Assembly: GCF_004353825.1 (NCBI RefSeq) | Contig: NZ_SMNA01000002.1 | Span: forward strand, 558,001 to 582,751 | Length of the DNA stretch: 24,751 nucleotides | Source of the DNA: Occultella glacieicola | Lineage (GTDB): Bacteria; Actinomycetota; Actinomycetes; Actinomycetales; Beutenbergiaceae | Reading direction: 5' to 3' | Part shown: positions 762 to 24,751 of the stretch, in pieces | Position numbering within the stretch: position 1 is the first letter of the stretch | Layout: the number at the start of each line of letters is the position of its first letter | The notes under the pieces: generated by a model | What the model was told of the DNA's origin: nothing | Seen by the model: only the letters and a program-made list of their open reading frames with translations | The model's database searches: none | Translations under genes and position numbers: made by a program

Positions 762-2297
<1,536 letters not shown>

Positions 2298-3488: not shown

Positions 3489-3782
3489 GTGGCTGAACTA
3501 TCCCGGCTCCCCGGACCAGTGATGGATCTTTGGGAGTGGCAGTACGAGGGGGCCTGTCGGGACGTCGGAACCGAGCAGTTCTTCCACCCCGAGGGGGAGC
3601 GGGGGTCGTCGCGTCGCCGCCGTGACGCCGGCGCCAAGGCGGTCTGCGCCACCTGCCCCGTGATCCGGCAGTGCCGGGAGCACGCCCTGCAGGTGCGCGA
3701 GCCGTACGGGGTCTGGGGCGGCCTCTCCGAGGATGACCGCGCCGCGATCCTGGCGAACGAGCACGTGGCCGCGGCGAGTTGA
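3489..3782 (+). CDS. whiB3: WhiB-family Fe-S transcription factor, WhiB3/WhiD type
   Basis: LPGP..D.W.WQ..G.C, FFHPEGERG, C-x2-C-x5-C, EPYGVWGGLSE; GGAAGGA SD-like sequence before GTG 3489. Confidence 0.9.
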   Translation: MAELSRLPGPVMDLWEWQYEGACRDVGTEQFFHPEGERGSSRRRRDAGAKAVCATCPVIRQCREHALQVREPYGVWGGLSEDDRAAILANEHVAAAS

Positions 3783-3807: not shown

Positions 3808-3845
3808 ACGAAGGCTCGGCCCCCGATCGGGGGCCGAGCCTTCGT
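3808..3845. terminator. Bidirectional intrinsic terminator between convergent whiB3 and groES
   Basis: ACGAAGGCTCGGCCCCC-GATC-GGGGGCCGAGCCTTCGT: 17-bp perfect arms; T-containing tails on both strands. Confidence 0.85.
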
Positions 3846-3861: not shown

Positions 3862-4158
3862 TCACTTCTCGACGATCGCGAGGATGTCGCGCGCGGACAG
3901 GATGAGGAACTCCTCGCCCGCGTACTTCACCTCGGTGCCGCCGTACTTGCTGTAGATCACCGTGTCGCCCACGGCGACGTCCAGCGGGACGCGGTTGCCG
4001 TTGTCGTCGACGCGGCCCGGGCCGATGGCCAGGACCTCGCCCTCCTGGGGCTTCTCCTTGGCGGTGTCCGGGATGACGAGTCCGGACGCGGTGGTCTGCT
4101 CGGCCTCGAGCGTCTTGACGACGATCCGGTCCTCGAGCGGCTTGATGGAGACCGACAC
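3862..4158 (-). CDS. groES: Co-chaperonin GroES (Cpn10)
   Basis: [48 protein letters not shown] before GTG. Confidence 0.98.
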
Positions 4159-4298
4159 TGCGGACCTCCCCTTCGCATGAGTGTGTTGAACAGGACAGTG
4201 TTACCCGCAGCCCCTGGCCGAGTCCGCCGTCGCGGGGGTCGGACGCCACCTGAGTCTGCAAGGGAACGCTGCACCTCGCGATGCAGCCTTCACCACAA

Positions 4299-4327
4299 AA
4301 TCTAGGCGGCGATTAGCACTCGGTCAA
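4299..4327 (-). promoter_or_regulatory. groES promoter TTGACC-N17-TAGATT
   Basis: -35 at 4327-4322, -10 at 4304-4299, 17-bp spacer; -35 lies in the CIRCE spacer. Confidence 0.75.
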
Positions 4328-4339
4328 GGTGAGTGCTAA
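4313..4339. promoter_or_regulatory. CIRCE element (HrcA operator)
   Basis: Exact consensus TTAGCACTC-N9-GAGTGCTAA upstream of groES. Confidence 0.97.
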
Positions 4340-4384: not shown

Positions 4385-5785
4385 TCACGCTCCGACGGCA
4401 GCCCGGAATTGGGCGCGCGAGCGCCCGATCTCCTCGAGGAGGGCGAACTCGTCCTGGCGGGCCCGAATCCCGGTGTGCCCGGTGTAGAGGTCCTGGCGCG
4501 CGTACGCGAGCGCGACGGCGGCACGCTGGAACTCCTTCATCGCCTTCGCACCGTTCGGCCCACCCCGGCCGGCCCAGTCCCGTGCCTGCTTGCGGGCCCG
4601 CAGGGAGGACAGCATGTCCACCTCGTGCGGGGCGATCCACCCGGAGGGGATGTACTCGGACAGCCGCGAACGCAGGATCCCGATCTCCTTGCGGCGCAGC
4701 CACACCACGATGAAGGCCCAGACCGCCAGCGGCAGCCAGTTCACGAACACGACCAGGATCACGAGCGTGCCGACTCCGCCACCGAGCGCGGTCGCGAGAC
4801 CGTTCCAGAGGCCGTGCAGAAGGGCTGCGAGCAGGTACCCGATCGGCATCATCCACATCCAGGCGAGCTTGTTCCGGTTCCGCGACGCGAGGCCGAGCGC
4901 GAGTCCCATGCAGGAGGTGTAGATGAGGTGACCGAACGGCGAGACCAGCCCGCGGATGACGAACGTGAACGTCACGGTCTCCTCGTAGACCGCGAAGTAC
5001 TGGATGTTCTCCACGAACGCGAAGGCCGCCGCGATCACCGAGGCGTAGACGATGCCGTCGACCGGGCCGTTGAACTGGCGCCGCCGGAGCAGGAAGATCA
5101 ACAGGAGCCCGAGCCCCTTCCAGAACTCCTCGACGACCGGGGCGCCGAAGATCGCGCTCGCCGAGTCCGGGTCGAGGCCGGTGCCGAGCGCATCCGCGAG
5201 GGCGGGGCCGACCACGGAGTTCAGCAGGCTGGACATGAACACGGCCACGCCGCCGCCCCAGACGAACGCCACGATGAGCAACAGCCGCGGCTCGGGTTCC
5301 CATCGGTCCACGAGAAGGACGGTGGATCCGACGATCAGCAGCGGGATCAGCGCAAGCACGAACGCCTGGAATGTCGAACCGGTCCCGAAGGACAACGTGA
5401 ACAGGAACACGACGAACAGCAGGGCAGCCACACCGACCGAGAGCAGGACCACCTCCGCCGCGATCCGGCGGCGCCGCATCGGGGCGGGCGGGTGCACCGG
5501 CATGAACTGGTTCTGCGGCATCGGCGCGTACTGGGCCGACGGCGCGGCAACGGTCGGCTGCGACGGGGCGGCGCCGTATCCGTATCCGGGTTGGCCGTAC
5601 CCCTGTGGGGCGTAGCCCTGGTGGGGGTGTGGTTGCTGGCCCTGCGGGTACTGCTGTTGGCCGGGTCCGGGCTGTTGTGGGTAACCCTGCTGACCGGGTC
5701 CGGGCTGCTGTGGGTGACCCTGCTGACCCTGCGCGGGCTGCTGTGGGTACCCCTGCCCGGACTGCGGGAACTGTTGATTGCTCAC
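4385..5785 (-). CDS. PrsW-family intramembrane glutamic/metalloprotease with Q/P/G-rich N-terminus
   Basis: Motifs VVEEFWKG, FAFVEN, PFGH, LHGLWN; multiple hydrophobic helices; DRWEPEP; start chosen at GTG 5785 (MSNQQ...) downstream of TAGCGT. Confidence 0.88.
   Translation of the reverse strand: MSNQQFPQSGQGYPQQPAQGQQGHPQQPGPGQQGYPQQPGPGQQQYPQGQQPHPHQGYAPQGYGQPGYGYGAAPSQPTVAAPSAQYAPMPQNQFMPVHPPAPMRRRRIAAEVVLLSVGVAALLFVVFLFTLSFGTGSTFQAFVLALIPLLIVGSTVLLVDRWEPEPRLLLIVAFVWGGGVAVFMSSLLNSVVGPALADALGTGLDPDSASAIFGAPVVEEFWKGLGLLLIFLLRRRQFNGPVDGIVYASVIAAAFAFVENIQYFAVYEETVTFTFVIRGLVSPFGHLIYTSCMGLALGLASRNRNKLAWMWMMPIGYLLAALLHGLWNGLATALGGGVGTLVILVVFVNWLPLAVWAFIVVWLRRKEIGILRSRLSEYIPSGWIAPHEVDMLSSLRARKQARDWAGRGGPNGAKAMKEFQRAAVALAYARQDLYTGHTGIRARQDEFALLEEIGRSRAQFRAAVGA
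5661..5759. repeat. Three imperfect 33-bp tandem repeats in the prsW 5' end (QQGxPQQPGPG)
   Basis: Units 5661-5693, 5694-5726 (2 differences from the first) and 5727-5759 (more diverged). Confidence 0.85.
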
Positions 5786-24432: not shown

Positions 24433-24551
24433 GTCCGGCGGCGTCCTACTCTCCCACGTAGTCTCCCACGCAGTACCATCGGCGCAGAGGGGCTTAGCTT
24501 CCGGGTTCGGAATGGGTCCGGGCGTTTCCCCCTCGCTATGACCGCCGTAAC
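24433..24551 (-). rRNA. rrf: 5S ribosomal RNA
   Basis: Minus strand GTTACGGCGGTCATAGCG...CCCATTCCGAACCCGGAAGCTAAG...GCCGATGGTACTGC...GGGAGAGTAGGACGCCGCCGGAC; ends +/-2 nt. Confidence 0.97.
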
Positions 24552-24637
24552 TCTATGGAGATGTTTCGGGTTTGGTGCCCGTATCTCGGGAACCGCACAG
24601 TGGACGCGTAGCACACAGTTTTGACTTTTTGTTGTGT

Positions 24638-24751
24638 GGTCAAGTTATCGGCATATTAGTACCGGTCAGCTTCATGAGTCTTGGTGTCCTCACTTCCACA
24701 TCCGGCCTATCAACCCAGTAGTCTAGCTGGGAGCCTCTCGGGGTCGAGCCC
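24638..24751 (-). rRNA. rrl: 23S ribosomal RNA, 3' end (partial)
   Basis: Minus strand ...GGGTTGATAGGCCGGATGTGGAAG...GCTGACCGGTACTAATATGCCGATAACTTGACC, the conserved 23S 3' terminus; end +/-3 nt. Confidence 0.95.

What the first reader, a model, noticed from the sequence alone, without database searches (positions are those of the whole stretch)
4203..4262. groES leader displays a CCCGCGACGG loop: candidate in-trans kissing partner of the unlinked groEL mRNA
Seen: the ~135-nt groES leader (minus strand) folds by eye into a stem GUCCG/CGGAC (4244-4240 with 4226-4222) closing a 13-nt loop ACCCCCGCGACGG, extended by UGGC/GCCA and UGCAG/CUGCG pairings. Recalled, not verified here: the mycobacterial groEL2 (hsp60) leader contains CCGTCCGTCGCGGG, whose CCGUCGCGGG is the exact 10-nt complement of this loop. 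Established: actinobacterial groEL2 is transcribed apart from groES yet needs GroES. Inference: complementary leader loops could let the two separately encoded chaperonin mRNAs pair, coordinating translation or stability as a virtual operon. I know of no description of this, but cannot exclude one.
Basis: partly seen in the sequence, partly recalled or inferred. Interest (0 to 1): 0.75.

Follow-up and report, generated by a model that had tools for sequence, protein, structure and literature searches.

The report
Complementary RNA loops link chaperonin mRNAs
In most actinomycete bacteria, the two separately located genes for the GroES and GroEL protein-folding machine carry folded RNA leaders with exactly matching loops, which suggests the two messenger RNAs pair with each other to keep the partners in step; the pairing has not been shown in cells.

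Summary
This genome's single, unlinked groEL has the exact complement in its leader. Among 198 genomes with both genes in hand, 156 carry the pair (groES CCGCGACG, groEL2 CGUCGCGG). Another 26, all in one family, carry a different pair that is again complementary (CGUCAGC, GCUGACG). Fifteen lack both, and 1 mismatch is a pattern hit probably outside the transcript. Each motif sits in an RNA fold with covarying stems. Losses go together in 6 of 6 independent pairs. The motif was not found in 27 groES leaders from other classes, 46 groES-groEL1 spacers, 8 extra groEL copies, or two other CIRCE genes. Best reading: a trans kissing interaction of 8-9 bp between the two mRNAs (about 0.7). Its likeliest effect is mutual stabilisation that matches their levels (inferred). 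Against: the canonical core is invariant, so it shows no base-by-base covariation; the groEL2 loop can fold on itself; there are no experimental data. No Rfam match, and no description found in 10 literature searches.

The parts
4313..4339 (-). CIRCE inverted repeat (HrcA operator), overlapping the -35 hexamer; separate from the RNA element
   Evidence: the name CIRCE/HrcA is established knowledge
4299..4327 (-). Promoter-like site, -35 at 4327-4322 and -10 at 4304-4299; start of transcription inferred near 4292
   Evidence: start site inferred, not measured
4267..4290 (-). First small leader hairpin; appears lineage-specific (by eye), not part of the conserved core
4203..4262 (-). groES leader hairpin that displays the loop
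4240..4244 (-). 5' arm of the loop-closing stem
   Evidence: pair 2 is C-G 109, U-A 32 of 146
4227..4239 (-). 13-nt loop; first and last bases probably form a purine-purine pair
4228..4236 (-). Conserved 9-nt core CCCGCGACG. Its complement lies outside the window, in the groEL leader at G000:C19:403095-403087 (minus strand), within a 13-nt internal-loop strand at 403099-403087, about 46 nt before the groEL start (403040)
4222..4226 (-). 3' arm of the loop-closing stem
4165..4174 (-). Shine-Dalgarno sequence of groES; not overlapped by the core
3862..4158 (-). groES coding sequence (98 aa); no groEL follows it
3808..3845 (-). Terminator-like hairpin after groES, so groES is probably transcribed alone

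Best explanation
The groES leader and the leader of the unlinked housekeeping groEL (groEL2) are two halves of one RNA device. groES shows an 8-9 nt segment in a hairpin loop. groEL2 carries the complement on the long strand of an asymmetric internal loop (AG opposite 13 nt). Shown here: complementarity, both folds, conservation, joint loss and joint replacement. Inferred: the two mRNAs form a loop-to-loop duplex in trans. Inferred further, and weaker: because the duplex lies well away from both ribosome-binding sites, it acts on mRNA fate, not by direct occlusion. My likeliest version is that paired leaders are protected and the unpaired excess decays, which matches the two transcripts (about half of the weight within this explanation). 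Tethering for side-by-side translation, or a refolding switch of the groEL2 leader, share the rest.
For: Unbiased k-mer count: the top conserved 8-mers are exact reverse complements (groES 144 of 156, groEL2 146 of 156). In family f35 the top 7-mers differ from these and are again complements (25 of 30, tied top, and 26 of 30). Final tally of 198 pairs: 156 canonical, 26 f35-type, 15 neither, 1 discordant. All 146 canonical pairs tested keep at least 8 contiguous Watson-Crick pairs. groES stem pair 2 is paired in 143 of 146 (shuffle maximum 124); the tree needs 21 and 19 changes for the two sides but only 22 jointly. The groEL2 architecture is found in 143 of 146, with G-U 125 against A-C 14. 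The f35 motifs are also in hairpin loops (21-25 of 26 paired over the first four stem pairs). G120 has a C-to-U change that keeps a U-G pair. Joint loss: 6 of 6 independent pairs on well-supported branches, p 0.031. Controls without the motif: 0 of 27 groES leaders of other classes (25 of them have groEL directly downstream), 0 of 46 groES-groEL1 spacers, 0 of 8 extra groEL copies, and the hrcA and hsp20 leaders here. Energy: 9-bp core -17.7 kcal/mol against median opening costs of 2.3 and 5.8; cross-type pairs only -3.6 to -5.6. Both leaders are transcribed at near-equal level in M. tuberculosis (549 and 542 RPKM, the top two 5' UTRs; PMC3207917, passages).
Against: The canonical core is essentially invariant, so there is no base-by-base covariation between the genes; invariance could also reflect a protein contact. 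Three natural changes are not compensated: G166 and G206 at core position 9, G241 at position 10. Most groES loops with A at position 10 face a C. The groEL2 core can fold on itself (MFE), and its mean unpaired probability (0.40) equals the leader mean. Joint loss mostly comes with short leaders in both genes, so it may partly reflect general leader shrinkage. The f35 pair is one lineage, with the strands swapped between the genes, so it counts as one event. The 8-mer occurs 1989 times in this genome. Blocking the cores does not change predicted ribosome-site access (0.320 to 0.321; 0.348 to 0.367). In S. incarnatus groEL2 and groES-groEL1 are reported to respond differently to stress (PMC13284173, passages). 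There is no expression or interaction data for this genome.
Confidence: 0.7

Rival explanations
1. Each leader is an RNA element bound by a protein, and the two never pair; the complementarity is a by-product, for example of an ancient inverted copy.
For: Invariant cores and conserved unpaired features: the AG bulge, the purine-purine pair, and a recurring inner-hairpin loop in 42 of 156 groEL2 leaders.
Against: The two folds differ from each other, yet their loops are exact complements in two unrelated sequence versions, and at least 8 pairs are kept in 146 of 146.
Confidence: 0.12
2. The motif is a DNA site for a transcription factor, lying in opposite orientations in the two promoter regions.
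For: Same core on opposite strands. With G at position 10 the segment is a weak CCG-N3-CGG palindrome. Joint loss and joint replacement also fit loss or change of a factor.
Against: Covarying flanking stems with G-U 125 against A-C 14 and 56 against 20. Orientation is fixed in 156 of 156. A at position 10 breaks the palindrome in more than half of the groES loops. The motif is absent from the hrcA and hsp20 leaders.
Confidence: 0.06
3. A third RNA is the real partner of one loop, and the other mRNA mimics or sponges it.
For: Deleting the sRNA F6 raises groES and groEL2 in M. tuberculosis, with no direct target predicted (PMC8557902, passages). The f35 groES 7-mer also occurs in 16S rRNA, and the canonical groEL2 7-mer in 3 of 56 tRNA/tmRNA genes.
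Against: No canonical 8-mer in either sense in the rRNA operon of G080, and no 7-mer in RNase P RNA or tmRNA here. Matches of 7-8 nt are expected by chance in several kb. The groEL2 14-mer occurs only 3 times in this genome. No genome-wide search for a conserved sRNA was made.
Confidence: 0.07
4. Each loop acts only in cis, pairing with its own Shine-Dalgarno region or coding sequence as a thermometer-like switch.
For: The loops pair with their own SD region slightly better than shuffled loops (105 of 143 and 124 of 145; about 2 kcal/mol). Pseudoknots were not modelled.
Against: No conserved cis partner: 4 of 110 in groES; the 55 of 114 hits in groEL2 coding sequence are 7-mers at a few recurring, probably codon-determined sites. 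It does not explain why two genes are complementary. No Rfam thermometer hit.
Confidence: 0.05

Closest known systems
Listeria hly-prsA2 mRNA-mRNA pairing (PMC8722363, abstract seen)
   Same: Two coding mRNAs from separate loci pair in trans, coupling a chaperone to its partner; the effect is on stability (RNase J1).
   Different: There a 3' UTR pairs with a 5' UTR, one way, in one pathogen. Here two structured 5' leaders carry matching loops, for two subunits of one complex, conserved across a class; the effect is unknown.
S. aureus vigR 3' UTR and S. mutans irvA-gbpC trans-acting mRNAs (PMC9217812, passages)
   Same: An mRNA stabilises another mRNA by base pairing.
   Different: The partner region is coding sequence, and the predicted vigR duplex is described as extensive; no reciprocal leader-leader design is described in the passages seen.
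Loop-loop kissing complexes: RNAIII-coa (PMC9217812 passage); CopA/CopT and RNAI/RNAII (recalled)
   Same: A short duplex between loops held open by stems.
   Different: Those use a dedicated sRNA or a cis-antisense RNA with long complementarity. Here both strands are mRNA leaders from unlinked genes, with 8-11 bp.
RNA thermometers on heat-shock leaders (ROSE, FourU; recalled) and CIRCE/HrcA
   Same: Structured leader of a heat-shock gene; CIRCE is present just upstream.
   Different: The element does not cover the ribosome-binding site and has no Rfam match; CIRCE is a separate DNA repeat.

Membership tests
Trans-acting mRNA-mRNA regulation (hly-prsA2 type) | Complementary segments in two coding mRNAs from unlinked loci | tested here: met
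   groES on contig C16, groEL on C19; 182 of 198 paired genomes
Trans-acting mRNA-mRNA regulation (hly-prsA2 type) | Both segments accessible for pairing | tested here: inconclusive
   groES core 0.64 unpaired against 0.43 for the leader; groEL2 core 0.40, median opening cost 5.8 kcal/mol; the comparative fold shows it open
Trans-acting mRNA-mRNA regulation (hly-prsA2 type) | Compensatory change keeps the pairing | tested here: inconclusive
   Whole-motif replacement in f35 and one U-G wobble; canonical core invariant, three uncompensated edge changes
Trans-acting mRNA-mRNA regulation (hly-prsA2 type) | Duplex shown in vitro or in vivo, with an effect on stability or translation | not testable with these tools
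   needs bench work
RNA thermometer | Element sequesters the Shine-Dalgarno sequence | tested here: not met
   core lies a median of 74 nt (groES) and 50 nt (groEL2) from the start; SD access unchanged when the core is blocked
RNA thermometer | Match to a curated family | tested here: not met
   no hit at gathering score in the window leader; only sub-threshold unrelated hits in 6 loci
CIRCE/HrcA-type DNA operator | 9-bp inverted repeat shared by the regulon's promoters | tested here: not met
   CIRCE lies separately at 4339-4313; motif absent from hrcA and hsp20 leaders
Cis-antisense kissing systems (CopA/CopT; recalled) | Partner transcribed from the opposite strand of the same locus, with long complementarity | tested here: not met
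   unlinked loci; 8-11 contiguous pairs in 145 of 146, 14 in one

The most novel reading that the evidence does not exclude
groES and groEL2 mRNAs form a dedicated heterodimer through their leaders, an operon rebuilt in trans. It arose when the housekeeping groEL left the groESL operon in the ancestor of the Actinomycetes, was rewritten with a new sequence and swapped strands in one family, and couples the output of the two subunits.
Probability: 0.5. Interest if true: 0.93.

Novelty: new variant of a known kind. Interest (0 to 1): 0.85.

Why it matters
The bacterial mRNA-mRNA pairings I read about are single-species cases found by experiment. This would be a class-wide, structurally encoded pairing between the mRNAs of two subunits of an essential machine. 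It offers a testable answer to how a lone groEL2 stays matched to GroES. It also defines two structured RNA motif pairs that Rfam 15 did not match. A practical side, from recall and not checked here: mycobacterial hsp60 expression vectors use the groEL2 upstream region, so transgene mRNAs that include this leader might pair with groES mRNA.

Tried and rejected
Rfam scans gave nothing on either leader. Overall folding energy of the leader is uninformative (z -0.69). A loose groES-hairpin descriptor matches 27 sites in this genome, so it has no specificity within one genome. A hunt for core variants in family f33 found none: 30 of 30 groES leaders are canonical, and so are 10 of 10 partners fetched. 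No release of either ribosome-binding site is predicted. An rRNA or tRNA partner was not supported beyond chance-length matches; no Ms1 RNA was found here. By eye, no alternative complementary pair is evident in the 15 genomes lacking both motifs; this was not tested statistically. The first tree run did not finish; a FastTree tree was used, with 38 of 188 rows under half filled. In one search a stricter pattern mislabelled G105 and G120; both carry the f35 pair. Genomes left out of the pair count for lack of a usable groEL2 or groES locus: G007, G014, G020, G029, G044, G049, G124, G176, G177, G213, G214, G230; also 18 f33 genomes and 70 of 80 named loci whose partners were not fetched, and 25 of 27 other-class genomes. 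Earlier scan notes held nothing relevant. No sequencing reads were examined, so transcription of the leader in this genome is inferred.

Full report
Observation. groES lies at 3862-4158 on the minus strand, with no groEL after it and a terminator-like hairpin at 3845-3808. Upstream are a CIRCE (4339-4313) and one promoter-like site, giving an inferred leader of about 134 nt. The leader as a whole does not fold better than shuffles (z -0.69), and Rfam has no match.

The partner in this genome. The genome has one groEL, on another contig. Its leader holds the exact 10-nt complement about 46 nt before the start codon, downstream of two CIRCE copies. About 0.0012 copies are expected by chance in a leader of that length.

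Conservation. I paired groES and groEL2 leaders in 198 genomes, sampled by class, own order, family f35, the order of a named Micromonospora locus (42, 44), the family of G181, family f33, ten named loci and two genomes of other classes. Result: 156 with both canonical motifs, 26 with both f35 motifs, 15 with neither, 1 discordant. The discordant hit (G109) lies 107 nt before the start, by my reading upstream of the promoter. In the 188 pairs then in hand, the most conserved k-mers of the two leaders, counted separately, are exact reverse complements in both groups. Among 80 named groES loci, 48 have the 8-mer, including Georgenia, Cellulomonas, Arthrobacter, Kineococcus, most Nocardioides, Amycolatopsis, Micromonospora and Kribbella; 0 of 24 named Microbacteriaceae have it. 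Family names for unnamed handles are my inference: f36 Microbacteriaceae (leader likeness to named loci), f35 Bifidobacteriaceae (small genomes, single unlinked groEL), family of G181 Mycobacteriaceae. Unpublished genomes G019 and G024 are among the 156, and G127 and G143 among the 27 controls; no claim depends on them.

Both halves are RNA structures. In 146 canonical pairs, groES stem pairs 2-5 are paired in 143, 140, 111 and 118 genomes, against shuffle maxima of 124, 119, 82 and 83. Pair 2 switches between C-G and U-A, with 21, 19 and 22 changes for the 5' side, 3' side and both together. The loop's end bases switch between G..A and A..G. The groEL2 element is an outer stem, then AG, an inner stem of variable length, a 13-nt strand ending in the core, and the outer stem again; it was found in 143 of 146. 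G-U outnumbers A-C 125 to 14 there and 56 to 20 in groES. Related genomes inflate shuffle tests, so the tree counts carry more weight. In f35 both motifs sit in hairpin loops.

Evidence that the two belong together. All 146 pairs keep at least 8 contiguous Watson-Crick pairs. Loss is joint in 6 of 6 independent pairs on well-supported branches (p 0.031; 10 pairs on all branches), including Nocardioides-like genomes of 4-5 Mb whose relatives keep both. Family f35 uses a different duplex, CGUCAGC with GCUGACG. It resembles the canonical one with one added A-U pair, but the strands are swapped between the genes. One f35 genome shows a U-G wobble. The motif was not found where groES and groEL share an operon (0 of 27 other-class leaders, 25 with groEL adjacent), in groES-groEL1 spacers (0 of 46), in extra groEL copies (0 of 8), or in this genome's hrcA and hsp20 leaders. 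An unlinked groEL does not require the device: two other-class genomes with a separate groEL (G149, G160) lack it, as do the Microbacteriaceae.

Evidence against. The canonical core does not vary, so base-by-base covariation between genes could not be shown; three edge changes are uncompensated. In five genomes of the Micromonospora/Stackebrandtia type groEL2 has U at position 10, and four of them face A in groES, but most A-bearing loops face C. The groEL2 core can form a small hairpin of its own, 6 kcal/mol better than the open form in this genome. Joint loss usually comes with short leaders. The 8-mer is common in this 71% GC genome.

How it most likely works. The duplex is worth -17.7 kcal/mol for 9 bp against about 8 kcal/mol to open both sites, ignoring the geometric cost of a kissing complex. 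The cores lie a median of 74 and 50 nt from the start codons, with wide spread, and blocking them does not change predicted SD access. Direct occlusion or release of a ribosome site is therefore unlikely. The known bacterial mRNA-mRNA pairs act by nuclease protection (PMC8722363 abstract; PMC9217812 passages). I therefore favour mutual stabilisation that trims the excess partner; this step is inference. The two leaders are the two most abundant intergenic 5' UTRs in M. tuberculosis, at 549 and 542 RPKM (PMC3207917 passages). B. breve has a 96-nt groES and a 118-nt groEL leader, at 4901 and 6121 RPKM (PMC5746004 supplement rows); the f35 cores start 57-96 and 52-77 nt before the start codons, which fits those lengths. 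GroEL2 is described as the essential generalist chaperonin of mycobacteria (PMC5904260 passages).

Novelty. Ten full-text searches listed no paper describing this pairing. Passages read in PMC8557902, PMC6009599, PMC3207917 and PMC13284173 do not mention it. The library lacks most subscription journals and bioRxiv supplements, and I did not read the supplements of large RNA-motif surveys, where either half could be listed as a candidate motif. I file it as a new variant of trans mRNA-mRNA pairing, not as a member of a described family.

Verdict. Observation confirmed. Interpretation supported by comparative evidence and unproven by experiment. Probability of direct trans pairing about 0.7; interest 0.85.

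Noticed in passing
L001 groEL leader (G000:C19, about 403130-403105) and relatives: The inner hairpin of the groEL2 element ends in a recurring loop (GACGUGA-like) in 42 of 156 genomes, and a GACAC motif occurs in 26 of 156; possibly a protein or tertiary contact.
   Followed up: partly
L235, L236, L237 (G100, G109, G117): These f35 genomes lack both RNA motifs, and my CIRCE pattern found nothing in their leaders; their groEL upstream regions show a HAIR-like inverted repeat (name recalled), suggesting a change of regulator.
   Followed up: no
L513 position 1476; L514 position 1440: The f35 groES 7-mer also occurs in 16S rRNA, and the 8-nt f35 groEL loop appears complementary to that 16S stretch; likely chance.
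   Followed up: partly
groES-groEL1 spacers, e.g. L006, L008, L018: Most of the 24 spacers printed hold a GC-rich hairpin with CCCCGG/CCGGGG-like arms and often no U tail (by eye); it may set the groES to groEL1 ratio.
   Followed up: no
L510 870-415 (G000:C18) and L509 561-1622 (G000:C1): The other two clear CIRCE sites of this genome precede an Hsp20-like gene and hrcA-dnaJ (named from the translations).
   Followed up: partly
L266 (G133): The long groES leader of this other-class genome has GGCGAGG and CCCGCGUCG, which recall pieces of both canonical elements in one leader; it may be chance or an ancestral state.
   Followed up: no
L448 (G192): A second groEL2-like copy (80% identity) near groES, on the opposite strand, has a CIRCE-like repeat and a short leader without the motif.
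   Followed up: no
window 762-2288, 3489-3782, 24433-24751: Neighbours: an IMP dehydrogenase-like gene, a WhiB-like gene convergent with groES (named from the translations), and 5S plus the end of 23S rRNA.
   Followed up: no
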